A stretch of DNA of 64,000 nucleotides from assembly GCA_964645315.1 (NCBI GenBank), contig CAZYBH010000004.1:853-64852 (forward strand), given 5' to 3'. This document shows, piece after piece, positions 565 to 63,676 of this stretch. Each line of letters begins with the position of its first letter. The stretch's first letter is position 1. The position numbers and the translations under genes are program-made. This DNA is from an uncultured Candidatus Saccharibacteria bacterium (lineage in GTDB: Bacteria; Patescibacteriota; Minisyncoccia; Phycocordibacterales; PALSA-1337). The notes under the pieces were generated by a model that saw nothing but the letters and a program-made list of their open reading frames with translations, did no database searches and had not been told where the DNA came from.

Positions 565-2238
565 ATGACAATCATATTTGATGAAGATAAACAAAAAAGA
601 AAACTAAATGATCTTTTGCACAAAGAGGAAGAGGAGCTTGTAAGCATACTGGCAAACAAATTTGGTCTTGAATACACAAACCTCATCACTACACCCATAA
701 ACGCTGATGCAATAAAACTCATAAACGAACAAAAAGCTCGCGATGCTCAAGTTGTAGCTTTTGCTCTTATAGATAAGAAAGTGAAGGTTGCAACAAGAAA
801 TCCAGAAAATCCATTACTAAATGAGATTCTTAGCGACCTCAAAAGCGCCGGTTACTATCCGGAGCTTTTCATGACCTCGACCGAAAGCCTGACAAAAGCT
901 TGGCAGACTTACAAAGATCTTTCATTTGCTTACGAAAGCAAATCTGGGTCATTGGAAATTTCAAATGAAGAGATAAACCGCATAATAAGCGAACAAAAAA
1001 GTCTTCCCCAAATAATATCAACACTAGAAAGTTTACTCGGATCAAAGATGAGCTATAGGATATCGAGAATATTGGAGACTACTATAGCCGGAGCTTTGGC
1101 TGTCGACGCTTCAGATATTCACTTCGAACCAGAGGAAAAGTACTGTCTTTTGAGATACAGATTGGATGGAGTACTTCACGATATTATCCATTTTGATAAT
1201 GAAACCTATGCCCTTCTCATTTCCCGTATCAAGTTGATTTCTGGCATGAAATTAAATATCAAAAAAGAAAATCAAGATGGCCGATTTAGTATTCGTTTGC
1301 CGATCGGTGATGTAGAGGTCCGTTCTTCTATTTTGCCAGGAGCATACAATGAGTCGATCGTCCTTAGACTTCTCAATCCAAAATCAATCGACGTCCCACT
1401 CGAAAATCTAGGCATTCATCCGAAGTTACTTGCTATCATACAAAAGTCTATTGATATGCCAGACAAAATGATATTGACCACTGGCCCGACCGGATCCGGC
1501 AAAACCACAACACTTTATGCTATTTTGAAAAAAATAAAATCTCCTGATTTGAAAATCATTACTCTAGAAGATCCGATCGAATACCATCTCGAGGGTATAG
1601 TCCAAACCCAGGTCAATGACAAAGGCTACAATTTTGCTGAAGGTTTGAGAGCTACCGTCAGACAAGATCCGGATGTTATTATGATTGGAGAAATAAGAGA
1701 CAGCGATACGGCAAATATTGCGGTCAATTCCGCCCTAACTGGACACTTGGTCTTCTCTACCCTACACACAAATGATGCGGCAGGCACATATCCAAGACTT
1801 ATCGATCTTGGCGTAAATTCAAAAGTTCTTACATCAGCAATCAGAATTGCCATGGCCCAAAGGTTGGCTCGTAAACTCTGCAATAATTGCAAAAAAGAAA
1901 TTGCAGTAGAAGGTCAAATAAAAACTTCTATTGATACAATATTGAATGAAATTGAAGATAAAACTCTAATTCCAAAAGACTATTCCAAAATATACGAAGC
2001 GACAGGTTGTGATCAGTGCAATAACACAGGATACAAAGGAAGAATTGGTATTTACGAAGCAATACTTACCGATCAAAATATCGAAAAAGTCGTAGAGATG
2101 AATCCAAGCGAAAGAGAGATTTGGCAAGCGGCCAAGGGTCAGGGATTATTGACCATGAAGCAAGATGGCATACTCAAGGTTTTGGGTGGTATCACCTCCA
2201 TACTAGAGCTAGAAAGAGTCATTGCCCTTACGGATTAG
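565..2238 (+). CDS. pilB: Type IV pilus / type II secretion family assembly ATPase (PilB/GspE-like), paralog 1
   Basis: N-terminal GSPII_E_N-like domain; Walker A GPTGSGKTTTLYA; Asp box DPDVIMIGEIRD; His box TGHLVFSTLHTND; tetracysteine CNNC...CDQC zinc motif. A TATAAT-like element at 552-557 sits only 7 nt before the ATG. Confidence 0.85.
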   Translation: MTIIFDEDKQKRKLNDLLHKEEEELVSILANKFGLEYTNLITTPINADAIKLINEQKARDAQVVAFALIDKKVKVATRNPENPLLNEILSDLKSAGYYPELFMTSTESLTKAWQTYKDLSFAYESKSGSLEISNEEINRIISEQKSLPQIISTLESLLGSKMSYRISRILETTIAGALAVDASDIHFEPEEKYCLLRYRLDGVLHDIIHFDNETYALLISRIKLISGMKLNIKKENQDGRFSIRLPIGDVEVRSSILPGAYNESIVLRLLNPKSIDVPLENLGIHPKLLAIIQKSIDMPDKMILTTGPTGSGKTTTLYAILKKIKSPDLKIITLEDPIEYHLEGIVQTQVNDKGYNFAEGLRATVRQDPDVIMIGEIRDSDTANIAVNSALTGHLVFSTLHTNDAAGTYPRLIDLGVNSKVLTSAIRIAMAQRLARKLCNNCKKEIAVEGQIKTSIDTILNEIEDKTLIPKDYSKIYEATGCDQCNNTGYKGRIGIYEAILTDQNIEKVVEMNPSEREIWQAAKGQGLLTMKQDGILKVLGGITSILELERVIALTD

Positions 2239-11268: not shown

Positions 11269-11403
11269 ATGTCATTTACGTATAATCCAAACAAAAGAAA
11301 AAGAGCAAAGACTCACGGTTTTCGTGTCCGCATGAAAAGTCCTGGAGGCAAGAACGTCTTGGCTCGTCGCAGATCCAAGGGTCGTGCGCGCCTAGCTGTA
11401 TAA
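11269..11403 (+). CDS. rpmH: 50S ribosomal protein L34
   Basis: 44-aa [47 protein letters not shown] matching the L34 consensus. Missing from the ORF track because it is short. Confidence 0.9.
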
Positions 11404-11405
11404 TT

Positions 11406-11741: not shown

Positions 11742-11750
11742 AATAAGCCA

Positions 11751-13798: not shown

Positions 13799-13800
13799 AA

Positions 13801-15030: not shown

Positions 15031-15031
15031 A

Positions 15032-16048: not shown

Positions 16049-16081
16049 GGCTATATTTTAGCACAACAATTACAAAAACTA

Positions 16082-16519: not shown

Positions 16520-16520
16520 A

Positions 16521-18332: not shown

Positions 18333-18333
18333 A

Positions 18334-18975: not shown

Positions 18976-19433
18976 TATTTTTGATTTTGATTAGAGTACA
19001 TACTCTCTTTGATATCCAATGACCATGTGAGATCTTTGAGTTTGCTGTCGGAGATTTTTGGTACCATAACTGAAGCGTAATTTTGATTTTCTTGAGCTTT
19101 ATCTTGCTTTTTGATGGGTTTATCGGACTTTTTCCAGATATATAGTTTGCTATTTGTATAATAATGAAAAGCTGATTCTAGTACACTGACGAAAGGTTTG
19201 TTGTTTATCTTGAGAAATGCCAAAGCGCTAGATGCTCCCATGATTATTGCTGCTGGGAATAATGAAAGGATGAAGTTGTCCAATATGACATATATGATAA
19301 ACGACAACCCTGCCCCACCGACGAGATAAATAAACTGCTTTAGGGTTAATTGCCCAAAGATCTTATCTTCCACTTCAATAAATTGAGGAACTTGGAATCG
19401 CATCGAATATATTATAACCCAAGCACAAAACAA
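18975..19433 (-). CDS. VirB3-like small membrane protein
   Basis: Immediately precedes the VirB4 N-domain ORF with a TAATG stop/start overlap. Contains a FGQLTLKQFIYLVGGAGLSFIIYVIL segment followed by a second hydrophobic helix, as in VirB3/TrbD/PrgI-type proteins. Confidence 0.5.
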   Translation of the reverse strand: MFCAWVIIYSMRFQVPQFIEVEDKIFGQLTLKQFIYLVGGAGLSFIIYVILDNFILSLFPAAIIMGASSALAFLKINNKPFVSVLESAFHYYTNSKLYIWKKSDKPIKKQDKAQENQNYASVMVPKISDSKLKDLTWSLDIKESMYSNQNQK

Positions 19434-19441
19434 AGTCTTGT

Positions 19442-23151: not shown

Positions 23152-23152
23152 T

Positions 23153-40571: not shown

Positions 40572-41167
40572 GTTAGGAGCATAGCAAATGTTAGTTTTTC
40601 AGACACGCGAAGTCTTGCAAGACTTTGCTCTGTTTCGGAAATTTCTTGCTAGAAATTTCCTGCAAACGGTCTTCAAAACCAACATTTGCAATGCCGATTA
40701 CTCACTGAATTAGTCGTAAAGAATTAGAAGTAAAAAACCGCGTGGAGCGCAGTCTAGGAAAGACTGGTCACGCGGTTTATAGTCTTCCCGAAAGAAGACG
40801 AAAGGGACCAAAGAACAAGGGGTACGAAAACCCTGTGGCCATAAATGAATAGGCCATTTCCTGACAAGACGATTCCTAATGGGAGATCAAACGCATTGCT
40901 ACTCTACATGCTGTGCTCTCCAGATTGGAGGCAATTTTTTTATTGAGAGAGAATGTTTGACCTTTGACCCCGAGCAATCGAACGTCGGAAAAAAGTTTCG
41001 GAAAGACTTCGAACGGAGTATGAAGCCTACCACACACATTTTCCAAAGAACATTTTCATCTGATTGTGGAACTTTAAAAACAAATATATTTTTATTTTCA
41101 AAATTCCACAATCTCCTCGGTCGATGAACTTGTCTGGGTATATTTTATGTCCTTAATAAAAAAGTGT

Positions 41168-41207
41168 AAAGGACATACTGTGGATAACTCAAAATATTGT
41201 GTCCTTT
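41168..41207. terminator. Hairpin AAAGGACA-N24-TGTCCTTT (candidate cca terminator on the - strand) carrying a perfect DnaA box TGTGGATAA in its loop
   Basis: 8-bp stem; on the - strand it is followed by a T-run. The loop contains TGTGGATAA (41179-41187). Confidence 0.4.
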
Positions 41208-41263
41208 ATATATTTGAATTTTGACTTTTATTTTGTTAGCCAAAAATACCCTTATTTATAGGC

Positions 41264-42803: not shown

Positions 42804-42875
42804 CGCCCTCGTGGTGAAATGGATATCACATCGGTCTTCGGAACCGCTATTGGGGGTTCGAATCCCTCCGAGGGC
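42804..42875 (+). tRNA. tRNA-Arg (anticodon TCG)
   Basis: Manual cloverleaf: acceptor GCCCTCG/CGAGGGC; D-arm GTGA-AATGGATA-TCAC; anticodon loop CTTCGGA; T-arm GGGGG-TTCGAAT-CCCTC; discriminator A; CCA not encoded. Confidence 0.75.
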
Positions 42876-43027
42876 ACATTTTTAACGTATTGATAAAATA
42901 ATAGTAAATAGCACGTACTATTAGTTTTTGTTATATAAATAAAAAAACATTTGTAAAAAAATAATATTAGGTTATACTAGGTCATTATAGTTTGTAGGGA
43001 ATTGTAAGGAGACCTACAAATATTAAT

Positions 43028-43098
43028 GCGGGTATAGTTTAGTGGTAGAACGTATCGTTGCCAACGATAAGATGGGAGTTCGATTCTCCCTACCCGCA
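43028..43098 (+). tRNA. tRNA-Gly (anticodon GCC)
   Basis: Acceptor GCGGGTA/TACCCGC; anticodon stem TATCG/CGATA; loop TTGCCAA; T-arm GGGAG-TTCGATT-CTCCC. Confidence 0.88.
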
Positions 43099-43226
43099 CA
43101 GGAATAAATCAAATTGGTCTTTTTCTTATTCACATCGTGAAAATGTGGTTAATTGTTCTATAGTCCTTGAAATATGGCTATAAATATAGGAATTATTATT
43201 CCTATACTCAAAACTAACAGACAACT

Positions 43227-43246
43227 GTGGATAACTTTGTGGATTA
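43227..43246 (+). promoter_or_regulatory. Pair of DnaA boxes (TGTGGATAA perfect, TGTGGATTA one mismatch) in direct orientation, 11 bp apart, upstream of yraN
   Basis: Exact consensus 9-mer at 43227-43235 and a near-consensus at 43238-43246, about 30-50 nt upstream of the yraN ATG. Confidence 0.4.
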
Positions 43247-43276
43247 TGTTAATAAAAGACGGCTTTTATGGCTTAA

Positions 43277-43672
43277 ATGCGTAGAATTTTGAATAGAAAT
43301 ACACATGAAAAGGGTATTATTGGAGAGAAAATAGCCTCAAAATACTTGATAAATAAGGGTTATTCTATAATTGATCGAAATTTTCGAAAAAGATGGGGTG
43401 AAATAGACATTATTGCTAATAAGGACAGCGTGATCCATTTTATAGAGGTCAAAAGCATCATAGACAATGAAAAAACTGAAGGGGATATACATAGACCAGA
43501 AGATAATGTTAGCGGCAGGAAAATTCATAAAATACGCCGGATGGTCGAGACTTATTTTGATGAAAAAATAAAAGACACTAGCCAGAATTTTGCTTTTCAT
43601 GTAATCTGTGTATACTTGAATTTCGTAAAGAGAAAGGCAAGGATAAAGATGATAGAGAATATTATCCTATGA
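43277..43672 (+). CDS. yraN: YraN-family (UPF0102) predicted endonuclease
   Basis: GEKIASKYLINKGYSIIDRNFRKRWGEIDIIANKDSVIHFIEVKS matches the YraN core (G-E-A-YL-G--IL-RN-R---GEID-IA----V-FVEVK). Confidence 0.75.
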   Translation: MRRILNRNTHEKGIIGEKIASKYLINKGYSIIDRNFRKRWGEIDIIANKDSVIHFIEVKSIIDNEKTEGDIHRPEDNVSGRKIHKIRRMVETYFDEKIKDTSQNFAFHVICVYLNFVKRKARIKMIENIIL

Positions 43673-43691
43673 TATGTTAGGATAATACAAA

Positions 43692-43764
43692 CGGAGCGTG
43701 GTGTAACGGCTAACATTCCTCTTTTGGGAAGAGGCGACTCCGGGTTCGAATCCCGGCGCTCCGA
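43692..43764 (+). tRNA. tRNA-Pro (anticodon TGG)
   Basis: Acceptor CGGAGCG/CGCTCCG; D-loop with GG; anticodon stem CCTCT/AGAGG; loop TTTGGGA; T-arm CCGGG-TTCGAAT-CCCGG; discriminator A. Confidence 0.85.
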
Positions 43765-43835
43765 CAAGAAAGTCCAAAGTTTTGGTAATCTTTGTCTATT
43801 AATTGTTTTGAAATAGTGAAAAGTGCAAAGTTTGC

Positions 43836-44288
43836 ATGCAAATATGTTATTATTTAATCATGATTAGGAAAGTAATTAATTTTTTTGATAAATTTGAAGA
43901 TTATGTTAGGGGGCATCTAAGTCGTTATCCTATCGCTTATACGATGATTGGCGGTGTAGCGATCGTGCTGTTTTGGAGAGGGGTTTGGCATACTGCCGAT
44001 CTATTGCAAGAGAAGGGAGGTTGGTTGGGTTGGTTATTTTATGAGCCTACAAATCTAGCTATTGTTACGATTATTCTTCTTGCTACTGGTCTATTTGTCT
44101 CTTATTTTATCGGAGATACGATACTTATGAGTGGAATGAGGGGGGAAAAGAAGATTGCTGATAAGACCGAAAGGGAAATAAGGGAAGAAGAGGAAGAACT
44201 AAAAAAGATTCAAGATACAATAAAGGTTATAGAAAAGGACGTAGAAGCTATAAAGGAGGCGGTTATCGGTGGAGAAAAAAAGGTTTAG
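43836..44288 (+). CDS. Small membrane protein (2-3 TM) with a charged coiled-coil C-terminus
   Basis: Hydrophobic helices IAYTMIGGVAIVLFW and LAIVTIILLATGLFVSYFI; EEEEELKK tail. The start may be at a downstream Met (MIRKV). Confidence 0.45.
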   Translation: MQICYYLIMIRKVINFFDKFEDYVRGHLSRYPIAYTMIGGVAIVLFWRGVWHTADLLQEKGGWLGWLFYEPTNLAIVTIILLATGLFVSYFIGDTILMSGMRGEKKIADKTEREIREEEEELKKIQDTIKVIEKDVEAIKEAVIGGEKKV

Positions 44289-44345
44289 TTTGTTTTGCTG
44301 AATTTATGATATAATAGCAGTTATTCAACTCTATTTTGTTCATAA

Positions 44346-45008
44346 ATGCACAAGCAATTAATTAAAGAAAAGGCGATAGAATTGAGAAAACAAGGTAATT
44401 CCTTTGCCTTTATCTCTTCAAAATTAAATATTGCAAAAAGTACGTTAAGCATTTGGCTTAAAGGAATTAATTTTATGCCAAATGAAGCTTATGTAAATAA
44501 TGTTTTGCGTAATACCCAAAAACTCGTTGAAATAAAGAGGGTCGATAAAATGGCTTCACTAAGAGCGGCGCGTTTATATGCTGACACAAGTGTTGGTAAA
44601 ACCGATAAAAGAGATAACTTTATATTTGGACTGGGTATTTATCTTGGTGAAGGGAGTAAGTCAGACATAAGAATTTCTAATTCAGATCCAAGAATAATAA
44701 AATTTTCAATAAATTGGTTTAAAGAACATTTTGGCCTAACAGACAGCAATTTTCGTATTAGGCTACATATTTATCCAGATAAAGATAAAACCGAACTTAT
44801 TGAATTCTGGAGTAAGGCTGTTGACTTAAGCGAGAAGTATTTTTTTGATTGTTACGTAGATATACGCACGAACAAGAAGAAAGATAGACGAGGGATTTTG
44901 CCGTATGGAACTGCTCATCTAAGTATTGTAAGTAATGGTAATAAAAACTTCGGCGTCTTGTTACACAGGAAAATTATTGCTAGTATTGATCGAGTTCTTC
45001 AATTGTAG
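44346..45008 (+). CDS. HTH-domain protein with a LAGLIDADG-like motif (possible free-standing homing-endonuclease-like gene) embedded in the tRNA cluster
   Basis: N-terminal HTH-like LRKQGNSFAFISSKLNIAKSTLSIWLKG; central FIFGLGIYLGEGSK resembles LAGLIDADG (LAG-IDGDGS). Flanked by tRNA genes on both sides. Confidence 0.35.
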   Translation: MHKQLIKEKAIELRKQGNSFAFISSKLNIAKSTLSIWLKGINFMPNEAYVNNVLRNTQKLVEIKRVDKMASLRAARLYADTSVGKTDKRDNFIFGLGIYLGEGSKSDIRISNSDPRIIKFSINWFKEHFGLTDSNFRIRLHIYPDKDKTELIEFWSKAVDLSEKYFFDCYVDIRTNKKKDRRGILPYGTAHLSIVSNGNKNFGVLLHRKIIASIDRVLQL

Positions 45009-45015
45009 GGTATTT

Positions 45016-45089
45016 GCGGGTATGGTTTAGTGGTAGAATGACACACTTCCAATGTGTAGACGGGAGTTCGATTCTCCCTACCCGCACCA
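45016..45089 (+). tRNA. tRNA-Gly (anticodon TCC), 3' CCA encoded
   Basis: Acceptor GCGGGTA/TACCCGC; anticodon stem ACACA/TGTGT; loop CTTCCAA; T-arm GGGAG-TTCGATT-CTCCC; ACCA at the 3' end. Confidence 0.88.
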
Positions 45090-56776: not shown

Positions 56777-58525
56777 ATGTACGTTGAAGATACTCAACTC
56801 TATAAATTTATTTTGGACTCTGGCTTAGTAAGCAAGGAGGATCTTGAGGTCGCAAAAAAAGAAAGCGAATCATCAAAGAAGCATTTGGGGGATGTTTTGG
56901 TAAGTTCCGGCAAGATAAATGCAGACAATCTCCGCAGAATGCAGGCATATAGCCTCGGCATTCCATTCGTCGACCTCAAAGGCAAGAAACTCCCTTTCGA
57001 GACCTTGACCCTTATCCCTGAGCCTATTGCAAGAGCGCACAATATCGTAGCTTTCAAAAAGACCGATGTTGCTCTTGAAGTAGCAATGCTTGATGTAAAT
57101 GACTTGTCTGCTATCGATTTTATTAAGAAAAAAGTCAATCTCAAGATTTTGCCTAGACTTACTGATTCTGATTCAATCAAGGAGGTTTTGGTCCAATACC
57201 AAAAAAGCTTGAAGGCAGAATTTGGCGATTTGATCCAAAAAGAGACCGCTTCTCTAAAGATGATATCAGAAGAGAAGGGTGATGCGGTTACAGAAGCCGA
57301 CCTCAAAAAGATCGCCGAAGACTTACCTGTGGTCCGTATAGTCGACACACTTATCAAGCATGCAATATTGCAAAATGCTTCAGATATTCATATTGAGCCG
57401 ATGGAAGAACAGGTCTTGGTCCGATATCGTATAGATGGACTTCTACATGATGCCATGGTTTTGCCGAAGAAGGCCGGTCCATCGGTCTCTGCTCGTATCA
57501 AGGTCTTGGCAAATCTAAAACTCGACGAAAAAAGACTTCCTCAAGACGGTCGTTTCAAAGTTGATATGAATAGTGAGAAGGTCTCTTTCCGTGTCTCTAT
57601 TCTACCTACTTACTATGGAGAAAAGATCGTCATGCGTCTACTTCGCGAAAGTATATCTGGTTTTACATTGGAATATCTCAATTTCCACGGCCAAGGTCTC
57701 GAAGATATTCACAAAGTTTTGAAGAAGACGACTGGCATGATCCTCATGACTGGACCTACAGGATCAGGTAAGACTACTACTTTGTATACCATGCTTGATA
57801 TTTTGAATACTCCAGACGTAAATATTTCTACAATCGAAGACCCTATCGAATATCAAATGGCTAGGATCAATCAGACTCAAGTCAAACCAGAAATAGGTTT
57901 TTCATTCCCACAAGGTATTAGGACACTAGTTCGTCAGGACCCAGACGTGATCATGGTGGGAGAAATACGCGACAATGAAACCGCAGCTTTGGCCGTAAAT
58001 GCAGCCTTGACTGGTCACTTAGTGCTTTCTACATTGCACACAAACTCTGCCGCTGGTGCTATGCCAAGATTGCTAGATATGAAAGTAGAGCCATTCTTGC
58101 TGGTCTCGACCCTTGATGTTGTTATTGGTCAAAGATTGGTCAGACGTCTAAATGATTTGAAACAACAATACAAACTTACAAAAGACGAATTGGCTCAATT
58201 GGATAAGATTGTCGATCTAAAAAGAATACTAAATTTCTTGAGAGAAGAGAAAATAGTCAAATCGAGCGACGATTGGGATAGTATTAAGTTTTGGAAGGCA
58301 GTACCAGGACCAGATGATGATGGTTTCAAGAGTCGTGTCGGTATACATGAAGTACTTACGATGACTCCTGCCATCAAAAACCTGATTATGAAAAATGCCA
58401 CTGCTCAAGAAATAGAAGATCAAGCAAAAAAAGACGGCATGCTTACTATGCTAGAAGACGGAATATTCAAATGCGTTCAAGGTTTGACCACAATAGAAGA
58501 AGTCCTAAGAGTTATTACTGATTAA
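56777..58525 (+). CDS. pilB: Type IV pilus assembly ATPase PilB (paralog 2, lacks the tetracysteine zinc motif)
   Basis: GSPII_E_N-like N-domain; Walker A GPTGSGKTTTLYTML; DPDVIMVGEIRD; TGHLVLSTLHTNS. No Cys residues in the C-terminal region. Confidence 0.9.
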   Translation: MYVEDTQLYKFILDSGLVSKEDLEVAKKESESSKKHLGDVLVSSGKINADNLRRMQAYSLGIPFVDLKGKKLPFETLTLIPEPIARAHNIVAFKKTDVALEVAMLDVNDLSAIDFIKKKVNLKILPRLTDSDSIKEVLVQYQKSLKAEFGDLIQKETASLKMISEEKGDAVTEADLKKIAEDLPVVRIVDTLIKHAILQNASDIHIEPMEEQVLVRYRIDGLLHDAMVLPKKAGPSVSARIKVLANLKLDEKRLPQDGRFKVDMNSEKVSFRVSILPTYYGEKIVMRLLRESISGFTLEYLNFHGQGLEDIHKVLKKTTGMILMTGPTGSGKTTTLYTMLDILNTPDVNISTIEDPIEYQMARINQTQVKPEIGFSFPQGIRTLVRQDPDVIMVGEIRDNETAALAVNAALTGHLVLSTLHTNSAAGAMPRLLDMKVEPFLLVSTLDVVIGQRLVRRLNDLKQQYKLTKDELAQLDKIVDLKRILNFLREEKIVKSSDDWDSIKFWKAVPGPDDDGFKSRVGIHEVLTMTPAIKNLIMKNATAQEIEDQAKKDGMLTMLEDGIFKCVQGLTTIEEVLRVITD

Positions 58526-58569
58526 TTTTTAATTTTTAAATTTTGATTTTTCATTTTTAAATTTGAAAC

Positions 58570-59787
58570 ATGTCCCACTTTATTTTTAAAGCAAGGAAAC
58601 TGTCTGGAGAAGTCTATAAGGGCGAAAGAGATGCCAATGATCATTTCGAATTGTACAAAATGATGCGTGATCAGGGTGATGAAGTCATAGAATACAAAGA
58701 GAAAAAATCTCGAAGCAAGTTGAATTTCAATATATCGATTCCTTTTTTTGGTGGTGTAAAACCCTTGGAAAAAATCAATTTTGCTAGAAATCTAGGAGCA
58801 ATGCTTGAAGCGGGTCTAGCTTTGTCTCGTGCTTTGGTAGTTATCGAAAAGCAGACCAAAAATCCAGCATTCAAAAAAGTCATTGGTAGTCTTATATCAG
58901 AAGTTGATACTGGTGTGACTTTGGCTGATGCTTTGGATAAATTTCCAAAAGTTTTCCCAAAACTCTTCGTTTCAATGGTCAAAGCTGGTGAACAAAGCGG
59001 TACTTTGGCTGAATCTTTGAAAATTGTTGCTCAGCAGATGGACAGTGCCTATGCTCTAGATAAGAGGATAAAGGGAGCAATGTTGTATCCAGCTGTTATC
59101 GTGACTGCAATGATCATAATTGCTATTTTGATGTTTATTTATGTTGTTCCTACTCTTTTGAAGACATTTACCGAGCTTCATATCAAGTTGCCAGCGACTA
59201 CCCAGTTTGTTTTGGATGTTAGCAATCTTATTAGAGATCATGGTTTGGTAGTACTTATTGTATTTATAATGGTGGCGCTTTTCCTTATTTGGTGGTCCAA
59301 GAAACCTTTGGGTAAGAGAGTTATACATTCTTTGGTATTGAAAATGCCAATTTTTGGAGCCTTGGTTCAAGAAGTCAATACGGCAAGGACGGCAAGGACG
59401 ATGTCTTCTTTGTTGGGTTCTGGTGTCGATGTGGTCGAGACGGTCAATATTACATCTGAAGTTGTTCAAAATGTTTATTTCCAAGAAGTTTTGCAAAAAG
59501 CATCTGCTTCAATCAAAAATGGAGATTTGATGTCAAAAACATTTAGCCAATATTCCAAATATTATCCAATATTTTTTATCGAGATGATGACAGTTGGAGA
59601 GGAGACAGGTAAGACTGGGGAAATGCTAATGGGAGTAGCCAAATATTATGAAGATGATGTCAATCAAAAGACAAAAGATATGTCTACGATTATCGAACCT
59701 ATACTCATCTTGATGATTGGAGGTGCGGTCGGATTCTTCGCAGTTTCTATGATCCAACCTATGTACTCACTCATGGATGCAATATAA
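58570..59787 (+). CDS. pilC: Type IV pilus platform protein PilC / GspF family
   Basis: Two T2SSF repeats, three TM; motifs such as NLGAMLEAGLALSRAL and EMMTVGEETGKTGEML. Confidence 0.9.
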   Translation: MSHFIFKARKLSGEVYKGERDANDHFELYKMMRDQGDEVIEYKEKKSRSKLNFNISIPFFGGVKPLEKINFARNLGAMLEAGLALSRALVVIEKQTKNPAFKKVIGSLISEVDTGVTLADALDKFPKVFPKLFVSMVKAGEQSGTLAESLKIVAQQMDSAYALDKRIKGAMLYPAVIVTAMIIIAILMFIYVVPTLLKTFTELHIKLPATTQFVLDVSNLIRDHGLVVLIVFIMVALFLIWWSKKPLGKRVIHSLVLKMPIFGALVQEVNTARTARTMSSLLGSGVDVVETVNITSEVVQNVYFQEVLQKASASIKNGDLMSKTFSQYSKYYPIFFIEMMTVGEETGKTGEMLMGVAKYYEDDVNQKTKDMSTIIEPILILMIGGAVGFFAVSMIQPMYSLMDAI

Positions 59788-59788
59788 A

Positions 59789-61558
59789 ATGTACAAAAAT
59801 ATAAGAAATAATAGCGGTTTTACTTTGGTAGAAGTAGTAGTCGGCTCTGCTATATTTCTCATTGTTGCCCTTGCTGTCTATAGTACTTTCGTCAGTATTA
59901 TCAATTTGGCAAGTGGAGGTCAATCTAGAAGTCTTGCGGTTGAGCTTGCTGATGAACAATTTGAAATAATTAGAAATTTACCGTATTCAAGTATCGGTCT
60001 TACAAACGGTATACCTGTAGGAGTTTTGCCACAAAATCAAACTCTGAATAGGGGAGGTGTTAGTTTCAATGTATTACTTACTATCAGAAATATAAATTTG
60101 TCTACTTCTACGGTACAGGCCAGTGATAAATTGGTAGAAGTAGAAGTTTCTTGTCCGAAGTGCAAGGATTTCGAAACTGTAACTCTAACCGGACAAGTCT
60201 CTCCAGCCAATCTCCAATCTGCTGGAAGTGGTGGTGCATTGGTTACTCAGGTTTTCGATGGTAGTGGTCAACCGGTCCAAGGTGCTACGGTTTTTTTGCA
60301 AAGTGCAGCCACTGGAACAATTACAAATACTGATGTAACAAATAATTATGGAATTTTGAATGTTATTGGAGTTGCTCAGGGAAATAATATGTACAAGATT
60401 CGAGTTTCGAAAGACGGTTATTCTACAGAAGAGACATATCCTATAGGCGGGGCAGGCAATCCAAATCCAACAAAGCCAAATGCAACGATCTTGAATCAGC
60501 AAGTTACTCAACTTAGTTTTTCTATTGATAAATTGAGTACTTTGCATGTTTCAAGCGTCTCTCCTATGTGTGTTGCAATTCCAAATATAGATTTCAACCT
60601 ATCTGGCGCAAAAATGATTGGCGCAAATCTCAAAAAATACAGTTCCAGCCTTGCTACAAATGGTTCGGGGATATTGAATTTATCAAATATGGAATGGGAT
60701 ACTTATACATTGGATCCAAATGATGGTTCTTATGATTTGGCAGGCATAAATCCAGACGGTCCATTTTCACTTAGTCCAGATACTACGCAAAATATACAAT
60801 TAGTAATGGTGCCAAAAAATGGTAATAGCTTGATGGTTTCTATAATCGATAGTACTACCAAGTTGCCGGTCTCAGGCGCATCAGTTGAGTTGACAAAGGC
60901 TGGTTATGATGTGACGAAGATTACAGGTCAGGGTTATTTGGATCAAATAGATTGGACAAATGGTCCTGGTCAAACTGATTTTATTGATAGTACAAAATAT
61001 TTTGATGAAAATGGCTTGCTCGACACTTCTACTTCATCAGGTGATGTGCTTATGAAAATGATTTTTGGTGCATATACTACAAATGCTACTGGAACATTGG
61101 AATCTTCTACCTTCGACACTGGTACATCGAGCAATTTTTACACATTTTCTTGGCTACCACTTAGTCAGCCGGCTCAAACTGGCCAAAATAGCTTGAAATT
61201 CCAATTTGCTACAAATGCAAGCTCTACAGATCCTTGGACATTTATAGGTCCAGATGGTACTACAAATTCCTACTATATGACTCCAGGTCAGCCTATCAGC
61301 GTAGCAAACAATGGCAAGCAATATGCTAGATACAAAGCATATTTGACTACCGATTCTGCAACAGCAACACCGAAGCTTTCTAGTGTAAACTTTGTCTATA
61401 CATCCGGTTGTATTCCCCCTGGTCAAGTTATTTTCCAAAACCTTAGTACGGGAAATTACACATTGAATGTTACAAAAGCTGGTTATAACAATTACTCTGT
61501 TCCTGTGACGATCAATAATGGCTGGCAAAGACTAGGTGTTTCTTTTGTAGCTCAATAA
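59789..61558 (+). CDS. Giant type IV pilin-like protein (prepilin leader + ~570-aa beta-rich body with CarboxypepD_reg-like segments)
   Basis: Class III signal MYKNIRNNSG|FTLVEVVVGSAIFLIVALAVY (G-1, F+1, E+5); the body contains GSGQPVQGATVFL-type beta-sandwich motifs. Start taken at M5 of the track ORF. Confidence 0.7.
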   Translation: MYKNIRNNSGFTLVEVVVGSAIFLIVALAVYSTFVSIINLASGGQSRSLAVELADEQFEIIRNLPYSSIGLTNGIPVGVLPQNQTLNRGGVSFNVLLTIRNINLSTSTVQASDKLVEVEVSCPKCKDFETVTLTGQVSPANLQSAGSGGALVTQVFDGSGQPVQGATVFLQSAATGTITNTDVTNNYGILNVIGVAQGNNMYKIRVSKDGYSTEETYPIGGAGNPNPTKPNATILNQQVTQLSFSIDKLSTLHVSSVSPMCVAIPNIDFNLSGAKMIGANLKKYSSSLATNGSGILNLSNMEWDTYTLDPNDGSYDLAGINPDGPFSLSPDTTQNIQLVMVPKNGNSLMVSIIDSTTKLPVSGASVELTKAGYDVTKITGQGYLDQIDWTNGPGQTDFIDSTKYFDENGLLDTSTSSGDVLMKMIFGAYTTNATGTLESSTFDTGTSSNFYTFSWLPLSQPAQTGQNSLKFQFATNASSTDPWTFIGPDGTTNSYYMTPGQPISVANNGKQYARYKAYLTTDSATATPKLSSVNFVYTSGCIPPGQVIFQNLSTGNYTLNVTKAGYNNYSVPVTINNGWQRLGVSFVAQ

Positions 61559-61577
61559 AAGCTATAATATAGACAGC

Positions 61578-62210
61578 ATGAGTGAAAAAAATAAACTTTT
61601 TTCTATCAAAAAAAATAGAGGTTTTACATTTGTGGAGCTTTTATTTTTCGTCGGAATTTTCGTAATGATCTATATAGCAGTCTCTGCTATGGGAGCAAAT
61701 CTCTTTATTTTTAATTCAACCACATCGGGTTCTTATCAAGCCACCCAAAATTCGCAGGTTATTTTGAGAACAATGTTGAAAGAAATAAGAGAAGCCTCTC
61801 CTGGAGCAAATGGTGCCTATCCTTTGGTTACGACAGGTAGTACGACATTATCATTCTTCACCGATGTAGATAATGATGGTGTTACTGAGCAAGTTACATA
61901 TTCATTGATCGGCACAACTCTATACCGATCGGTTATAAAGTCTACTGGTACACCGCCGGTCTATAGTGGGGCAAATCAATCCACTTCTACTCTTATAAAT
62001 AATGTTGTAAATGGCTCGGCTACTCCTTCATTTCAATATTTCGATACTTACTACACAGGCACAAGCTCTCCTTTGGTACAGCCAGTAAATCCATCTCAAG
62101 TTAAGCTAATACAGGTAAATCAAAGGATAGATATAGACCCAAATCGATCACCTCTTCCTATTATCTTTACGGTTCAGGCTAGTTTAAGAAATCTAAAATC
62201 AAATCTATGA
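61578..62210 (+). CDS. Type IV (pseudo)pilin, prepilin-type N-terminal methylation domain
   Basis: KKNRG|FTFVELLFFVGIFVMIYIAV: the canonical GFT-x-x-E prepilin signal. Confidence 0.7.
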   Translation: MSEKNKLFSIKKNRGFTFVELLFFVGIFVMIYIAVSAMGANLFIFNSTTSGSYQATQNSQVILRTMLKEIREASPGANGAYPLVTTGSTTLSFFTDVDNDGVTEQVTYSLIGTTLYRSVIKSTGTPPVYSGANQSTSTLINNVVNGSATPSFQYFDTYYTGTSSPLVQPVNPSQVKLIQVNQRIDIDPNRSPLPIIFTVQASLRNLKSNL

Positions 62211-63676
62211 TTATAAATAAACAAAAGGGCAATATTATACTTACGGTTCTAATTTTCGCAGCAATTTCTGTAACGATTTTGGTAGGCTTAGCAAATTGGG
62301 GAGTTACTATGCTTCGAAGTATAAGGACGGTATCTCAAAAAGAACAAGCATTCCAGATAGCAGAGGCTGGTGCGGATTATTATCAATGGCATTTAGCTCA
62401 ATATCCTACAGATTATAAGGATGGTACGGCCACTTCTGGACCTTATGTACACAATTTTTATGATAAAGATGGGAACCTACTTGGTACATACTCTTTGACC
62501 ATTACTCCTCCACTATCCGGTTCTACTGTGGTAAAGATTACTTCTATAGGCAAGTTGGCAAGTTCAACCATTTCAAAAAAAGTCCAAAAAACTCTGGCAA
62601 TTCCATCTTTGGCAAAATATGCCGTAGTTGCAAATGATAATCTTAGATTTGGAGAGGGTACAGAAGTCTTCGGTCCCATTCATTCAAATGGAGGAATTAG
62701 ATTTGACGGTATTACTCACAATCTAATGACTAGTGCCATGGCAACATATACTGATCCGGATACAGGATTAGTACAATGGGGTGTCTACACAACAAGCGGT
62801 CAAGATGATCCAAGGCCAAATGCTCCTGTAAATAATCGTCCAGATGTATTTATGGCAGGAAGACAGTTCCCGGTTCCAGGTAGCGATTTTGCAGGTTTGA
62901 CTTTGGGTTTGACACAGCTTAGAAATTTGGCACAGCCTGCCGCTGGAGGAAAGGAGTGGACTGCTTCAAATAAAAAGGGTTATCAAATTATTTTCAAAGT
63001 AACAAATGGTGTAACTTCATACGATATTTACAAAGTTACAGCTGTGCAATCTGCTCCAAATGGCTGTGGTTCAGATGCGACAGCACAAAGTCAGCTAAAT
63101 GGTCCAAAATATTATCAATGGGATACTTGGAGTATAAAAAGTCCGATAAATAATAATAGGACTCTCATTGGAAATTATCCAATACCAAGTAATGGTGTAA
63201 TATTTGTCGATGATCATGTCTGGGTAGAGGGTACTATCAATAATGCCAGAGTTACAGTTGCTGCTGGCCTCATAGGTAATACTGATCCTACGAAACATGC
63301 AAATATTACGATAAATGAAAACTTAAGATATACAAATTACGATGGTAGAGATTCTATTGGCCTAATTGCTCAAGGAAATGTAAATGTTGGTATGGTGAGT
63401 GCTGATAATTTGAGGATCGATGCGGCTCTTGTAGCAGAAAACGGAAGAGTTGGCAGGTTCTATTACAATAGTAGTTGTACAAACTCAGTAAGAAATACAG
63501 TCACTCTTTTTGGTATGATTGCTAGTTATGTTCGTTATGGTTTCGCTTATACAGATAATACAGGATATACAAATAGGGACATTATTTATGACAATAACTT
63601 GCTCTACGGTCCGCCACCTTCATTCCCTCAATCTACAAATCAATATGAAGTTATCAATTGGCAACAATTGGATTAG
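62207..63676 (+). CDS. PilX-N-like minor pilin / pilus tip protein (489 aa)
   Basis: N-terminus QKGNIILTVLIFAAISVTILVGLANWGVTMLRSI resembles the PilX N-terminal domain. Overlaps the preceding pilin gene by 4 nt. Confidence 0.5.
   Translation: MIINKQKGNIILTVLIFAAISVTILVGLANWGVTMLRSIRTVSQKEQAFQIAEAGADYYQWHLAQYPTDYKDGTATSGPYVHNFYDKDGNLLGTYSLTITPPLSGSTVVKITSIGKLASSTISKKVQKTLAIPSLAKYAVVANDNLRFGEGTEVFGPIHSNGGIRFDGITHNLMTSAMATYTDPDTGLVQWGVYTTSGQDDPRPNAPVNNRPDVFMAGRQFPVPGSDFAGLTLGLTQLRNLAQPAAGGKEWTASNKKGYQIIFKVTNGVTSYDIYKVTAVQSAPNGCGSDATAQSQLNGPKYYQWDTWSIKSPINNNRTLIGNYPIPSNGVIFVDDHVWVEGTINNARVTVAAGLIGNTDPTKHANITINENLRYTNYDGRDSIGLIAQGNVNVGMVSADNLRIDAALVAENGRVGRFYYNSSCTNSVRNTVTLFGMIASYVRYGFAYTDNTGYTNRDIIYDNNLLYGPPPSFPQSTNQYEVINWQQLD

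What the first reader, a model, noticed from the sequence alone, without database searches (positions are those of the whole stretch)
56777..63676. Type IV pilus locus with pilB-pilC and three pilin-like genes including a 590-aa giant pilin; second PilB paralog elsewhere
pilB(2), pilC, a 590-aa protein with a canonical class III prepilin signal (…NNSG|FTLVEV), a 210-aa pseudopilin and a 489-aa PilX-N-like protein lie in one + strand block. The giant pilin has beta-sandwich (CarboxypepD_reg-like) motifs in its body, consistent with an adhesive tip or shaft subunit.

The window also contains a second, orphan PilB/GspE-like ATPase at 565-2238. That paralog keeps the tetracysteine Zn motif, which PilB(2) lacks. 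The two ATPases may therefore drive distinct filaments, for example an adhesion or twitching pilus versus a competence pilus. No pilT, pilD or pilMNO is present in this window.
Basis: partly seen in the sequence, partly recalled or inferred. Interest (0 to 1): 0.55.

Follow-up and report, generated by a model that had tools for sequence, protein, structure and literature searches.

The report
Patescibacterial pilus motor plus tip-pilin trio
This is a real, widely conserved type IV pilus operon of an ultrasmall (Patescibacteria) bacterium: an assembly motor, a membrane platform and three large pilin-like proteins that most likely form the pilus tip, one of them folding like the only known pilus-tip DNA receptor.

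Summary
Window 56777-63676 (+) is a tight five-gene operon: pilB, pilC, a 593-aa (or 590-aa) prepilin, a 210-aa prepilin and a 489-aa PilX/GspK-like protein. It lies between nusA and tpiA. A second PilB-type ATPase with a CxxC...CxxC motif sits alone at 565-2238. No pilD, pilT, pilMNO or small major pilin is in the window.

New findings:
- The three-pilin block is colinear and adjacent in 72 of 76 related Patescibacteria loci. pilB-pilC lies directly upstream in 55 of 62.
- The 489-aa protein keeps Gly-1 but never has Glu+5. Its model matches Thermus ComZ (Foldseek E 1.7e-12), a pilin with a beta-solenoid, so it is probably the filament cap.
- The giant pilin is a small GspI/ComGE-like pilin module fused to about 450 aa of Ig-like/CnaB-like beta-sandwich domains.

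I read the trio as a GspI-J-K-like priming and tip complex. The major pilin is encoded elsewhere. The ligand (host surface or DNA) is unresolved.

Both ATPases are extension-type, not PilT. The missing Zn motif in the operon PilB is a gradual lineage loss, not a class marker. "Two filaments" remains untested. This is a new variant of a known kind, of moderate interest.

The parts
56777..58525 (+). pilB2: operon-linked PilB/GspE-type extension ATPase (582 aa). Walker A at nt 57752-57775, Asp box 57836-57850, Walker B 57938-57973, His box 58010-58045. No tetracysteine motif.
   Evidence: Pfam T2SSE 7e-119 and MshEN 4e-12. NCBIfam PilB 506 bits, GspE 501, PilT 190. Best PDB hit is M. xanthus PilB 3jc8, 4e-116. 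Motif coordinates.
58570..59787 (+). pilC: PilC/GspF platform protein (405 aa, two T2SSF domains).
   Evidence: Pfam T2SSF 1e-54, two stretches. NCBIfam GspF 308 bits, PilC(Thermus) 286 bits.
59777..61558 (+). Giant modular pilin (593 aa; 590 aa if Met4 at 59786 is the start). The gene overlaps pilC by 11 nt.
   Evidence: N_methyl 2e-7, CarboxypepD_reg 2e-11. More than 1,700 full-length homologues of about 590 aa in Patescibacteria. AF2 mean pLDDT 83.
59777..59818 (+). Giant pilin leader peptide (aa 1-14), with predicted prepilin-peptidase cleavage after Gly14 (NNSG|FTLVEV).
   Evidence: Motif found. G-1, F+1, L+3 and E+5 are at least 90% conserved. 68/78 orthologues are canonical; most others have Ala-1 or variant +1 to +3 with Glu+5, one lacks Glu+5, one is a mis-called ORF.
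59819..60199 (+). Giant pilin pilin module: alpha1 helix (model aa 17-66; mature protein starts at aa 15) and a four-stranded sheet (aa 87-141), containing the invariant C126-x-x-C129 (nt 60152-60163).
   Evidence: AF2 secondary structure. Invariant Cys columns. N-terminus hits GspI in 38/50 and ComGE in 40/50 family members, all below cutoff.
60233..61546 (+). Giant pilin body (aa 153-590): tandem beta-sandwich domains. I drew the domain boundaries from the secondary structure; they are not measured. Invariant C265 and C545.
   Evidence: AF2 pLDDT is mostly 80-94 here. Foldseek PDB hits to Gram-positive pilin and adhesin stalk domains: TIE 6fwv 2.7e-11, PitA, SpaA, BcpA, Cna-B. Pfam CarboxypepD_reg at aa 158-220, weak PEGA/SpaA at aa 549-581.
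61578..62210 (+). 210-aa minor pilin in the J position. Leader aa 1-15, cleavage after Gly15 (KNRG|FTFVELL).
   Evidence: Motif found. Glu+5 is present in all 78 orthologues; Gly-1 in 68, Ala or Ser in 9, one Gly-1 variant. 53/58 family members hit Pfam N_methyl. The family profile hits type IV pilin N-termini in PDB. ComGE, GspI, ComGF and GspJ hits are below cutoff. Structure not modelled.
62207..63676 (+). 489-aa ComZ/GspK-like cap pilin. Leader aa 1-8 (Gly8 invariant), no Glu at +5, alpha1 aa 4-65 (nt 62216-62401), pilin sheet aa 80-131 (nt 62444-62599), beta-rich solenoid-like domain about aa 140-460 (nt 62624-63586), terminal strand aa 481-488.
   Evidence: AF2 pLDDT 89, pTM 0.82. Foldseek top hit is ComZ 6qvi at E 1.7e-12, prob 1.0, followed by ice-binding-protein solenoids. 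G8 invariant. Position +5 is a non-acidic residue (mostly S, T, N or Q), never E. GspK hits in 19/56 and PilX_N in 9/56 members. More than 3,300 homologues.
565..2238 (+). pilB1: stand-alone PilB/GspE-type ATPase (557 aa). Walker A at nt 1483-1506. CxxC motifs at nt 1879-1890 and 2008-2019.
   Evidence: T2SSE 4e-114. PilB 439 and GspE 437.5 bits. Best PDB hit is G. metallireducens PilB, about 1e-93. More than 120 clusters at 70-94% identity; 104 of the 120 listed are exactly 557 aa. The same non-pil neighbourhood occurs in relatives.

Best explanation
The block 56777-63676 is a conserved module for type IV filament assembly and tip formation. It comes from a Patescibacteria (class Paceibacteria, Taylorbacteria-like) genome.

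Proposed mechanism:
1. PilB2 is the extension ATPase. It powers the PilC platform, which extracts pilins from the membrane.
2. The three downstream genes encode the complex that starts the filament and ends up at its tip, analogous to GspI-GspJ-GspK or PilV-PilW-PilX.
3. The 489-aa protein has a cleavable Gly-1 but no Glu+5. It combines a GspK-like pilin domain with a large ComZ-like beta-solenoid. It is inserted first and caps the fibre.
4. The 210-aa pilin (J position) and the giant pilin follow. The giant pilin is a GspI/ComGE-like module carrying a stalk of about 450 aa of Ig-like domains.
5. A small major pilin encoded elsewhere then polymerises beneath them. A prepilin peptidase, PilMNO and any PilT are also encoded elsewhere.

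The tip therefore displays a large extracellular complex (mature chains of about 579, 195 and 481 aa) that binds the pilus ligand. My estimate is that attachment to a partner-cell surface is somewhat more likely (about 0.45) than capture of extracellular DNA by the ComZ-like cap (about 0.3-0.35). The two are not exclusive.

Shown here: gene content, signals, folds and synteny. Inferred: order of assembly, tip location and ligand.
For: Machinery:
- The ATPase catalytic boxes are intact.

Operon:
- Genes are spaced 44, -11, 19 and -4 nt apart.

Conservation:
- The triad is colinear and adjacent in 72/76 loci.
- pilB-pilC lies upstream on the same strand in 55/62 loci and is convergent in 6.
- In locus L028, pilM-pilN-pilO sit between pilC and the giant pilin. 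This ties the trio to type IV pilus machinery.

Pilin nature:
- Class III signals are conserved.
- AF2 models of the giant and 489-aa proteins show a long N-terminal helix followed by a four-stranded sheet.
- The share of Gly+Ala+Ser+Thr residues, used as an extracellular-pilin signature in PMC11623550, is 33-37% in the pilins against 23-25% in the ATPases.

Cap:
- Gly-1 is invariant and Glu+5 is absent in every orthologue.
- GspK and PilX_N hits recur across the family.
- Foldseek gives ComZ at E 1.7e-12, then ice-binding-protein solenoids. The ComZ authors reported the same pair of resemblances and argued that ComZ can only fit at a pilus tip (PMC6561018).

I/J positions:
- GspI/ComGE hits occur in 38-40 of 50 giant-pilin relatives. 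ComGF/GspJ hits occur among 210-aa relatives.
- Gene order is I-J-K.

Major pilin elsewhere:
- Only 4/80 loci have other small prepilin ORFs within 10 kb.

Precedent:
- In Saccharibacteria TM7x, a large minor pilin (PilX2) is proposed as a tip protein and is needed for host binding (PMC11623550).
Against: - No heteromer was modelled and the 210-aa protein was not folded, so the I-J-K complex is inferred from order, size and N-terminal signals only.
- All GspI/J/K/ComG hits are below curated cutoffs and cover mainly the N-terminal helix.
- The ComZ similarity is structural only. The family profile finds nothing in PDB by sequence. TM-scores are low (0.26-0.33), although about 550 columns align.
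- No major pilin, PilD, PilMNO or PilT is in the window, so assembly of a real fibre is assumed.
- On the ligand: the proteins are acidic (giant pI 4.6; 489-aa family median pI 5.4), which does not favour DNA binding. Conversely, conservation of the cap (median 51% identity, at least that of PilC at 48%) is high for a host-specific adhesin.
Confidence: 0.72

Rival explanations
1. DNA-receptor reading. The trio is a competence-pilus tip. The ComZ-like cap, held by the adjacent pilins, binds extracellular DNA. Retraction or depolymerisation then delivers the DNA to ComEC. This would supply nucleotides to an organism that cannot make them.
For: - ComZ is the only significant structural match of the 489-aa protein. 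ComZ together with its GspI-like partner binds DNA at the tip (PMC6561018).
- ComEC is found in 86% of CPR genomes but the ComEA annotation in only 31%. The authors suggest an alternative DNA-binding mechanism (PMC6744442).
- The cap is as conserved as PilC across lineages, which fits a universal ligand.
- A ComM-like gene lies in the window at 29807-31324; this is weak support.
Against: - There is no sequence similarity to ComZ, and the DNA-contacting lysines could not be mapped.
- The pI is acidic.
- Beta-solenoids also occur in tapirins and tailspikes, which bind polysaccharide. There are weak tapirin N-terminal hits.
- The Ig-like stalk of the giant pilin is typical of adhesins.
- No comEC, comEA or dprA is in the window.
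Confidence: 0.32
2. The giant pilin is an adhesive tip or shaft subunit. The two ATPases drive two different filaments, for example adhesion/twitching versus competence, with the Zn motif marking the difference.
For: - Two divergent PilB paralogues (37% identity) are both strongly conserved. The same contigs carry both PilB1 and the trio (contig lengths 184762, 162964 and 69945 recur).
- TM7x uses two PilBs for two pili (PMC11623550).
- The giant pilin has an adhesin-like stalk.
Against: - PilB1 has no pilC, pilin or pilM neighbours in the window or in six relatives, so its partner machinery is unknown.
- Loss of the Zn motif is gradual within the operon-linked lineage.
- A shaft of 590-aa subunits is unlikely given the strict linkage to a Glu5-less cap.
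Confidence: 0.3
3. A short T2SS-like pseudopilus. PilB2, PilC and the three GspI/J/K-like proteins form a piston or stub that exports proteins through the wall or S-layer, rather than a long pilus.
For: - PilB2 scores equally on the GspE and PilB models (501 versus 506 bits). PilC scores best on GspF.
- The minor pilins resemble T2SS pseudopilins.
- No major pilin lies nearby in 76/80 loci.
Against: - No secretin or GspC/L/M genes are in the window, and CPR are reported to lack PilQ and a Gram-negative-type envelope (PMC6744442).
- The PDB best hits of PilB2 are T4aP PilBs (392 bits, against 316 for GspE).
- pilMNO is embedded in the operon in L028.
- T4P fibres have been seen on cultivated Saccharibacteria (TM7x) by cryo-ET (PMC11623550); fibres on other CPR cells are from my own knowledge.
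- A cap and stalk of this size (mature chains of about 481 and 579 aa) look like a display device, not a piston.
Confidence: 0.08
4. The giant pilin is itself the major, fibre-forming subunit, producing an unusually thick, Ig-decorated pilus.
For: - It has a perfect class III signal with Glu+5.
- No small pilin gene is in the operon.
Against: - At 579 aa mature it far exceeds major pilins, which are typically about 15-20 kDa (my own knowledge); TM7x's major pilins are described as relatively small (PMC11623550).
- The pilin head is minimal and GspI-like.
- Its conserved partnership with the J and K positions fits a minor-pilin set.
- Major pilin genes are often encoded away from assembly genes, as in TM7x.
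Confidence: 0.05

Closest known systems
ComZ-PilA2 tip DNA receptor of the Thermus thermophilus competence pilus (PDB 6qvi; PMC6561018)
   Same: - The 489-aa protein has a long N-terminal helix, a small pilin sheet and a large beta-solenoid, and is encoded last in a minor-pilin cluster.
- Foldseek E is 1.7e-12 over about 550 columns.
- The secondary resemblance to ice-binding-protein solenoids is the same as reported for ComZ.
- A GspI-like partner pilin is encoded nearby.
   Different: - There is no detectable sequence similarity, and TM-scores are low.
- The host has no outer membrane or secretin.
- The partner I-like pilin carries an extra stalk of about 450 aa.
- DNA binding is untested, and the protein is acidic.
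GspI-GspJ-GspK pseudopilus tip complex (T2SS) and the FimU/PilV/PilW/PilX core minor pilins (T4aP)
   Same: - Three consecutive genes in I-J-K order.
- The last and bulkiest member lacks Glu+5 while keeping Gly-1.
- N-terminal regions give recurrent sub-threshold hits to GspI/ComGE, GspJ/ComGF and GspK/PilX_N.
   Different: - Only three members are present; there is no GspH/FimU-like gene here. A separate H-I-J-K-like set does exist in L023 and L031.
- The I-like member is 593 aa rather than about 120 aa.
- None reaches a curated family cutoff.
Two type IV pilus systems of Saccharibacteria TM7x, with large minor pilins PilX1/PilX2 (PMC11623550)
   Same: - Same phylum.
- Two PilB paralogues.
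- Assembly genes are separated from major-pilin genes.
- Large accessory-domain minor pilins are proposed as tip adhesins.
- The Gly+Ala+Ser+Thr share is elevated in pilins.
   Different: - Different class (Paceibacteria).
- TM7x PilX2 carries a beta-propeller, not a solenoid.
- TM7x loci include PilM/N/O, PilT and PilD next to PilB/PilC.
- PilB1 here is a true orphan next to ruvB.
Modular type IV pilins (Streptococcus sanguinis PilB with a vWA module, PMC8179133; also S. sanguinis PilC with a lectin module and ETEC CofB / V. cholerae TcpB, from my own knowledge)
   Same: A pilin module is fused to bulky extra modules that give the fibre an adhesive or receptor function. Such pilins are low-abundance or tip-located.
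   Different: The extra modules here are four or more Ig-like/CnaB-like beta-sandwiches plus a larger beta domain. There is no vWA or lectin signature and no sequence relationship.
Stalk domains of Gram-positive sortase pilins and MSCRAMMs (SpaA, BcpA, PitA, Cna-B, TIE protein)
   Same: The body of the giant pilin matches these tandem Ig-like/CnaB domains by Foldseek (E 1e-11 to 1e-5).
   Different: - Similarity is at domain level only (TM about 0.15).
- There is no LPXTG sorting signal; anchoring is by a type IV pilin helix.
- Isopeptide bonds were not examined.
Tapirins of Caldicellulosiruptor (cellulose-binding, encoded in a T4P locus, beta-helix C-terminal domain)
   Same: - The N-terminal ~100 residues give weak hits to the tapirin model (E 0.0024 here; 3/56 relatives, best 3.6e-5).
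- Both are beta-helix proteins encoded in a T4P locus.
   Different: The scores are far below the cutoff (16 versus 600 bits). The match to the tapirin C-terminal domain is not significant (6n2c, E 1.4).

Membership tests
Type IV pilin / pseudopilin (class III signal peptide) | Gly (or Ala/Ser) at -1 of the cleavage site, preceded by a short basic leader | tested here: met
   - Giant pilin: NNSG|F.
- 210-aa pilin: NRG|F.
- 489-aa protein: KQKG|N.
- Gly-1 is at least 90% conserved (giant), present in 68/78 (Ala/Ser in 9, one Gly-1 variant) (210-aa) and invariant (489-aa).
Type IV pilin / pseudopilin (class III signal peptide) | Glu at +5 of the mature protein | tested here: met
   Met for the giant pilin (at least 90% conserved) and the 210-aa pilin (78/78). 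Not met for the 489-aa protein, where +5 is a non-acidic residue (mostly S, T, N or Q) in all orthologues. That is the known exception for GspK/PilX-type cap pilins.
Type IV pilin / pseudopilin (class III signal peptide) | Hydrophobic alpha1-N helix followed by an antiparallel beta-sheet head (the 'lollipop' fold) | tested here: met
   AF2 gives helix 17-66 plus four strands at 87-141 for the giant pilin, and helix 4-65 plus four strands at 80-131 for the 489-aa protein.
Type IV pilin / pseudopilin (class III signal peptide) | Cleavage and N-methylation by a PilD-type prepilin peptidase | not testable with these tools
   No Peptidase_A24 gene is in the window. The rest of the genome was not available.
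PilB/GspE extension ATPases | Walker A, Asp box, Walker B and His box in a T2SSE core, plus an N-terminal MshEN/N1E domain; length about 560 aa (PilT is about 345 aa) | tested here: met
   Both proteins meet this. PDB PilB scores are 392 and 318 bits, against PilT at 123 and 110 bits.
PilB/GspE extension ATPases | Tetracysteine (CxxC...CxxC) zinc motif in the C-terminal domain | tested here: not met
   Met in PilB1 (aa 439-442 and 482-485). Absent in PilB2. Among operon-linked orthologues, 7 keep it, 11 are partial and 41 have lost it. It is therefore not a defining feature within this lineage.
T4aP PilB equivalog (TIGR02538) / T2SS GspE equivalog (TIGR02533) | Score above NCBI's curated cutoff | tested here: not met
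   PilB2 scores 506 (cutoff 675.65) and 501 (cutoff 630.25). PilB1 scores 439 and 437.5. Both are superfamily members but are not assignable to either equivalog.
ComZ-like tip pilin | GspK-like pilin domain combined with a large triangular beta-solenoid | tested here: met
   Foldseek to 6qvi gives E 1.7e-12 and prob 1.0; ice-binding-protein solenoids come next. The order of secondary-structure elements is compatible with a solenoid inserted before a last strand.
ComZ-like tip pilin | Sequence homology to ComZ | tested here: not met
   The A2 family profile finds no PDB sequence at E <= 10.
ComZ-like tip pilin | Binds double-stranded DNA and binds an adjacent GspI-like pilin | not testable with these tools
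   This needs biochemistry or multimer modelling. The only indirect datum is an acidic pI.
GspI-J-K / core minor pilin tip complex | Three or four co-transcribed minor pilins, the terminal one lacking Glu5, forming a heteromer through their N-terminal helices | tested here: inconclusive
   Gene order, co-transcription spacing, the Glu5 pattern and family-level sub-threshold hits all agree. The heteromer itself was not tested.
Complete type IV pilus system | Major pilin, PilD, PilM/N/O (and PilT for retraction) in the genome | not testable with these tools
   None is in this 64-kb window. pilMNO lies inside the orthologous operon in L028, and extra small pilins occur in L023 and L031.

The most novel reading that the evidence does not exclude
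Across Paceibacteria, this conserved trio could be the long-missing extracellular DNA receptor of CPR bacteria. In this reading, a ComZ-like solenoid cap sits on a giant Ig-stalked pilin and substitutes for the frequently absent ComEA. That would make the 'CPR scavenge environmental DNA through pili' hypothesis directly testable with three defined proteins. A further possibility is that the universally conserved orphan PilB1 is a second motor acting on the same platform, for example in place of PilT.
Probability: 0.3. Interest if true: 0.75.

Novelty: new variant of a known kind. Interest (0 to 1): 0.45.

Why it matters
Type IV pili are among the few functions enriched and often essential in the ultrasmall, host-dependent Patescibacteria. 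Outside cultivated Saccharibacteria, nothing is known about what sits at the pilus tip.

This analysis defines a three-protein tip module that is conserved in gene order across Paceibacteria lineages, with thousands of homologues in metagenomes. It assigns its cap to the ComZ fold, so far known from one Thermus protein. It also shows that the "giant pilin" is a pilin fused to a stalk like those of Gram-positive adhesins.

These proteins are concrete candidates for the host-recognition or DNA-capture step of an uncultivated majority lineage. They could be tested with recombinant ectodomains and used as targets for labelling or enrichment of these cells.

The T4P locus itself, and the presence of two PilB paralogues, is ordinary for this phylum.

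Tried and rejected
- Profile searches of the three pilin families against PDB sequences gave no body-domain hits. Only pilin N-termini and a CarboxypepD_reg-like scaffoldin segment matched.
- An exact look-up of the window's own 489-aa protein for a longer contig found no record. Cluster look-up showed only that the source contig is 68,249 bp in NCBI/Logan.
- Promoter and terminator scans were no better than shuffles. The only useful site is a promoter-like match just upstream of tpiA.
- I considered c-di-GMP control of PilB2. The MshEN-motif model scores 28.3 bits against a cutoff of 38, and by eye the key Arg/Gly positions are not kept. I dropped this idea.
- I considered that PilB1 might be PilT-like or ComGA-like. 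I rejected this on length, the N-terminal domain and model scores.
- I looked for a neighbouring major pilin in 80 related loci. One is present in only 4.
- I checked whether PilB1 sits in a pil cluster in relatives. It never does. Its conserved neighbours are tsaE-polA-holA on one side and ruvB-yebC-ruvC-PBP1a-dnaN-dnaA on the other.
- I did not build a formal tree with labelled PilB/PilT/GspE/ComGA references, because no reference sequences are held locally. Curated-model and PDB bit scores were used instead.

Full report
**1. Observation**

- 56777-58525 encodes a 582-aa PilB/GspE-type ATPase. Pfam gives T2SSE 7e-119 and MshEN 4e-12. NCBIfam gives PilB 506 bits, GspE 501, ComGA 253 and PilT 190.
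- 58570-59787 encodes a 405-aa PilC/GspF with two T2SSF domains.
- 59777-61558 encodes a 593-aa protein, or 590 aa from Met4. Its signal reads ...NNSG|FTLVEV. It hits N_methyl (2e-7) and CarboxypepD_reg (2e-11).
- 61578-62210 encodes a 210-aa protein with the signal KNRG|FTFVELL.
- 62207-63676 encodes a 489-aa protein with only weak PilX_N, GspK and tapirin N-terminal hits.

Spacings of 44, -11, 19 and -4 nt indicate one operon. It is bounded upstream by divergent nusA and downstream by tpiA, which starts at 63714 (MNKKLIIGNWKMN) and has its own promoter-like site.

These are the only two G|F-T-x-x-E signals in all six frames of the window. Pfam scans of the 34 other long ORFs I submitted show housekeeping genes and no PilD, PilT or PilM; seven ORFs of the 12509-24742 cluster and yidC were only read by eye. 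The ORFs without hits do not resemble PilN/O or pilins.

The second ATPase (565-2238, 557 aa) is real. It has CNNC and CDQC motifs that PilB2 lacks.

**2. Source organism and family sizes**

GC content is 37.7%. The giant pilin has more than 1,700 homologues. In the 120 listed, these are near full-length (about 540-635 aa, mostly ~590 aa) at 50-95% identity, and every named hit is from Patescibacteria: Paceibacterota, Taylorbacteria or Parcubacteria. The 489-aa protein has more than 3,300 homologues. One is 100% identical and lies on a 68,249-bp NCBI/Logan contig.

A scan of one genome per GTDB species returned 80 loci, again from Patescibacteria. The many TPA records labelled "Saccharibacteria" appear to carry a generic label.

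**3. Synteny**

I ran tblastn of the window's proteins against those loci.

- The giant, 210-aa and 489-aa genes are colinear and adjacent in 72 of 76 loci.
- A PilB2-type ATPase and pilC lie directly upstream on the same strand in 55 of 62 loci and are convergent downstream in 6.
- nusA is a frequent upstream neighbour.
- In 41 loci holding all five genes, median identities to the window are PilB2 70%, PilC 48%, giant 43%, 210-aa 39% and 489-aa 51%. The extracellular cap is thus at least as conserved as the membrane platform.
- At short distance (L001) the pilins diverge faster than housekeeping genes: 69-70% against 92-93%.

In distant loci only the first ~400 residues of the giant pilin align, and lengths vary from 431 to 896 aa. 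This shows a conserved base and a replaceable distal part.

Other lineages insert pilM-pilN-pilO (L028) or a second H-I-J-K-like set of four small pilins (L023, L031) between pilC and the giant pilin. This ties the trio to type IV pilus machinery. Additional small prepilin ORFs occur within 10 kb in only 4 of 80 loci. The major pilin is therefore generally encoded elsewhere, as in TM7x.

**4. The three pilin-like proteins**

*Signals.* In 50 homologues of the giant pilin, Gly-1, Phe+1, Leu+3 and Glu+5 are at least 90% conserved. Among orthologues in other genomes, 68/78 (giant) and 68/78 (210-aa) have the canonical motif. Of the ten other 210-aa orthologues, nine have Ala or Ser at -1 and one has Gly-1 with Met-Met at +1/+2; Glu+5 is universal in the 210-aa family. 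Of the ten other giant-pilin orthologues, most have Ala at -1 or Gly-1 with a variant +1 to +3 and keep Glu+5; L055 lacks Glu+5 and L062 is a mis-called ORF. For the 210-aa family, 53/58 members hit N_methyl and the family profile hits type IV pilin N-termini in PDB.

The 489-aa family has an invariant Gly-1 (G8), but position +5 is a non-acidic residue (mostly Ser, Thr, Asn or Gln) and never Glu. This is the hallmark of GspK/PilX-type subunits, which occupy the very tip; that point rests on established knowledge of T2SS and T4P minor pilins. Family-wide scans agree:

- GspK hits in 19/56 and PilX_N in 9/56 of the 489-aa family.
- GspI in 38/50 and ComGE in 40/50 of the giant family.
- ComGE, GspI, ComGF and GspJ hits in the 210-aa family.

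All these hits are below curated cutoffs and cover mainly the N-terminus.

*Structures.* The giant pilin model has mean pLDDT 83. It shows a helix at 17-66, a four-stranded sheet at 87-141 that carries the invariant C126-x-x-C129, and then beta-sandwich domains to residue 590. Foldseek against PDB returns tandem Ig-like/CnaB stalks of Gram-positive pilins and adhesins: TIE 6fwv at 2.7e-11, then PitA, SpaA, BcpA and Cna-B. TM is about 0.15, so the similarity is at domain level.

The 489-aa model has pLDDT 89 and pTM 0.82. It shows a helix at 4-65, a four-stranded sheet at 80-131, a large beta-rich domain and a final strand at 481-488. Its top PDB matches are the three chains of Thermus thermophilus ComZ (6qvi; E 1.7e-12 to 2.9e-12, prob 1.0, about 550 aligned columns). 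Ice-binding-protein beta-solenoids follow.

This is the same pair of resemblances that the ComZ authors describe: a GspK-like pilin domain plus an ice-binding-protein-like triangular solenoid. They argue that ComZ can only fit at the pilus tip, where it binds DNA together with the GspI-like PilA2 (PMC6561018).

The link is structural only. The family profile finds no PDB sequence, and TM-scores are 0.26-0.33.

*Composition.* The share of Gly+Ala+Ser+Thr is 33-37% in the three pilins against 23-25% in the ATPases. PMC11623550 uses this measure as an extracellular-pilin signature. pI is 4.6 for the giant pilin and 6.7 for the 489-aa protein, with a family median of 5.4. Conservation is even across all domains in the aligned families.

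**5. The two ATPases**

They are 37% identical over about 540 residues. Both carry Walker A, Asp, Walker B and His boxes. Both match solved PilB, PilF and GspE structures far better than PilT: 392/318 bits against 123/110 bits. Neither reaches the NCBIfam equivalog cutoffs for PilB or GspE.

The Zn-motif contrast is not diagnostic. Among operon-linked PilBs of other lineages, 7 keep CxxC...CxxC, 11 keep 2-3 Cys and 41 keep 0-1.

PilB1 is remarkably conserved. More than 120 clusters share 70-94% identity; 104 of the 120 listed are exactly 557 aa. It always stands alone. In relatives it lies between divergent tsaE-polA-holA-like genes and ruvB-yebC-ruvC-PBP1a-dnaN-dnaA. In the window it is preceded by a divergent lipoprotein gene that runs off the left edge.

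This shows that the same genomes carry both PilB1 and the trio. What PilB1 drives cannot be told from this window. Two PilBs serving two pili is documented in TM7x.

**6. Mechanism proposed**

- Shown: a co-transcribed motor, platform and three prepilins; their folds; the Glu5 pattern; deep synteny.
- Inferred: the 489-aa protein enters first and caps the fibre. The 210-aa and giant pilins follow, as in the GspK-J-I arrangement. A major pilin from elsewhere then polymerises below them under PilB2/PilC action. The tip displays a solenoid and an Ig-domain stalk that bind the ligand.

For the ligand, I put host-surface attachment at about 0.45. This rests on the adhesin-like stalk, the TM7x PilX2 precedent and the acidic pI. 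I put DNA capture at about 0.3-0.35. This rests on the ComZ fold, the high conservation, and the fact that CPR commonly have ComEC while the ComEA annotation is found in only 31% of genomes (PMC6744442).

A T2SS-like pseudopilus (0.08) and a fibre built of the giant pilin itself (0.05) are less likely.

**7. Comparison with known systems and novelty**

T4P in CPR, two PilBs and large tip pilins are all known (PMC6744442, PMC11623550, PMC11665869). Three things appear not to have been described. A full-text search for ComZ together with Patescibacteria returned only irrelevant papers.

- The Paceibacteria-wide I-J-K-like trio.
- The ComZ-like fold of its cap.
- The architecture of the giant pilin.

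I class this as a new variant of a known kind, of moderate interest.

**8. Limits**

- No heteromer model was made, and the 210-aa protein was not modelled.
- No genome-wide inventory was possible.

Noticed in passing
window 12509-24742 (- strand): A 12-gene cluster of mostly unannotatable secreted or membrane proteins. It includes a VirB4/TraG-like ATPase (16521-18332; Pfam P-loop_TraG 5.5e-26) and a polytopic VirB6-like protein (21199-23151). It lies next to ksgA, yidC, rnpA, dnaA and dnaN. This matches the origin-proximal Patescibacteria type IV secretion system described in PMC12102498.
   Followed up: partly
window 565-2644; loci L083-L086, L107, L108: pilB1 is a conserved stand-alone gene. 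It lies between divergent tsaE-polA-holA and ruvB-yebC-ruvC-PBP1a. Two relatives examined for it (L107, L108) carry a 107-109-aa coiled-coil ORF 12 nt after pilB1. This ORF has no counterpart in the window's 406-nt pilB1-ruvB gap.
   Followed up: partly
window 1-110 (- strand): The N-terminus of a lipoprotein-like gene (MKMIFGLISLAWLAIVGAGC|SS...) runs off the left edge, divergent from pilB1. The first ~120 nt are unusually GC-rich.
   Followed up: no
window 56777-56950 (PilB2 aa 12-54): The N-terminus scores 28.3 bits (cutoff 38) on the NCBIfam MshE-type c-di-GMP-binding motif model. By eye, the key Arg/Gly positions of the two 24-residue motifs are not kept, so c-di-GMP control is unsupported.
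   Followed up: partly
window 29807-31324 (- strand): A ComM/YifB-like Mg-chelatase-family ATPase, a family linked to natural transformation. It is the only other gene in the window with a possible competence link.
   Followed up: no
loci L023 7241-9860, L031 7288-9431, L028 5998-8326, L021 2325-4957: In other Patescibacteria lineages the orthologous operon carries extra genes. L023 and L031 have a second set of four small H-I-J-K-like minor pilins between pilC and the giant pilin. L028 has pilM-pilN-pilO there. L021 has a sensor-like protein plus a response regulator between pilB and pilC.
   Followed up: partly
window 59777-61558 (giant pilin aa 126, 129, 265, 545): Four invariant cysteines: a CxxC in the pilin head, and a C265/C545 pair that could staple distant domains. 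CPR are reported to be enriched in an MdbA-like thiol-disulfide oxidoreductase, which the authors suggest may help pilins fold (PMC6744442). No such gene was seen in the window.
   Followed up: no
window 40572-41263: An ORF-free stretch of about 690 bp between an exo/endonuclease-phosphatase gene and the CCA-adding enzyme gene. No Rfam match at E <= 0.1.
   Followed up: partly
window 42805-45089: A tRNA cluster (Arg-TCG, Gly-GCC, Pro-TGG, Gly-TCC) interleaved with small genes. One is a 220-aa ORF (44346-45008) with no Pfam hit. Its FIFGLGIYLGEGSK segment looks LAGLIDADG-like; this is from memory and was not tested.
   Followed up: no
window 8401-12512: dnaN, dnaA, rnpA and yidC are together, so the window probably spans the chromosomal replication origin region. 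The GC-skew profile shows no clear switch.
   Followed up: no
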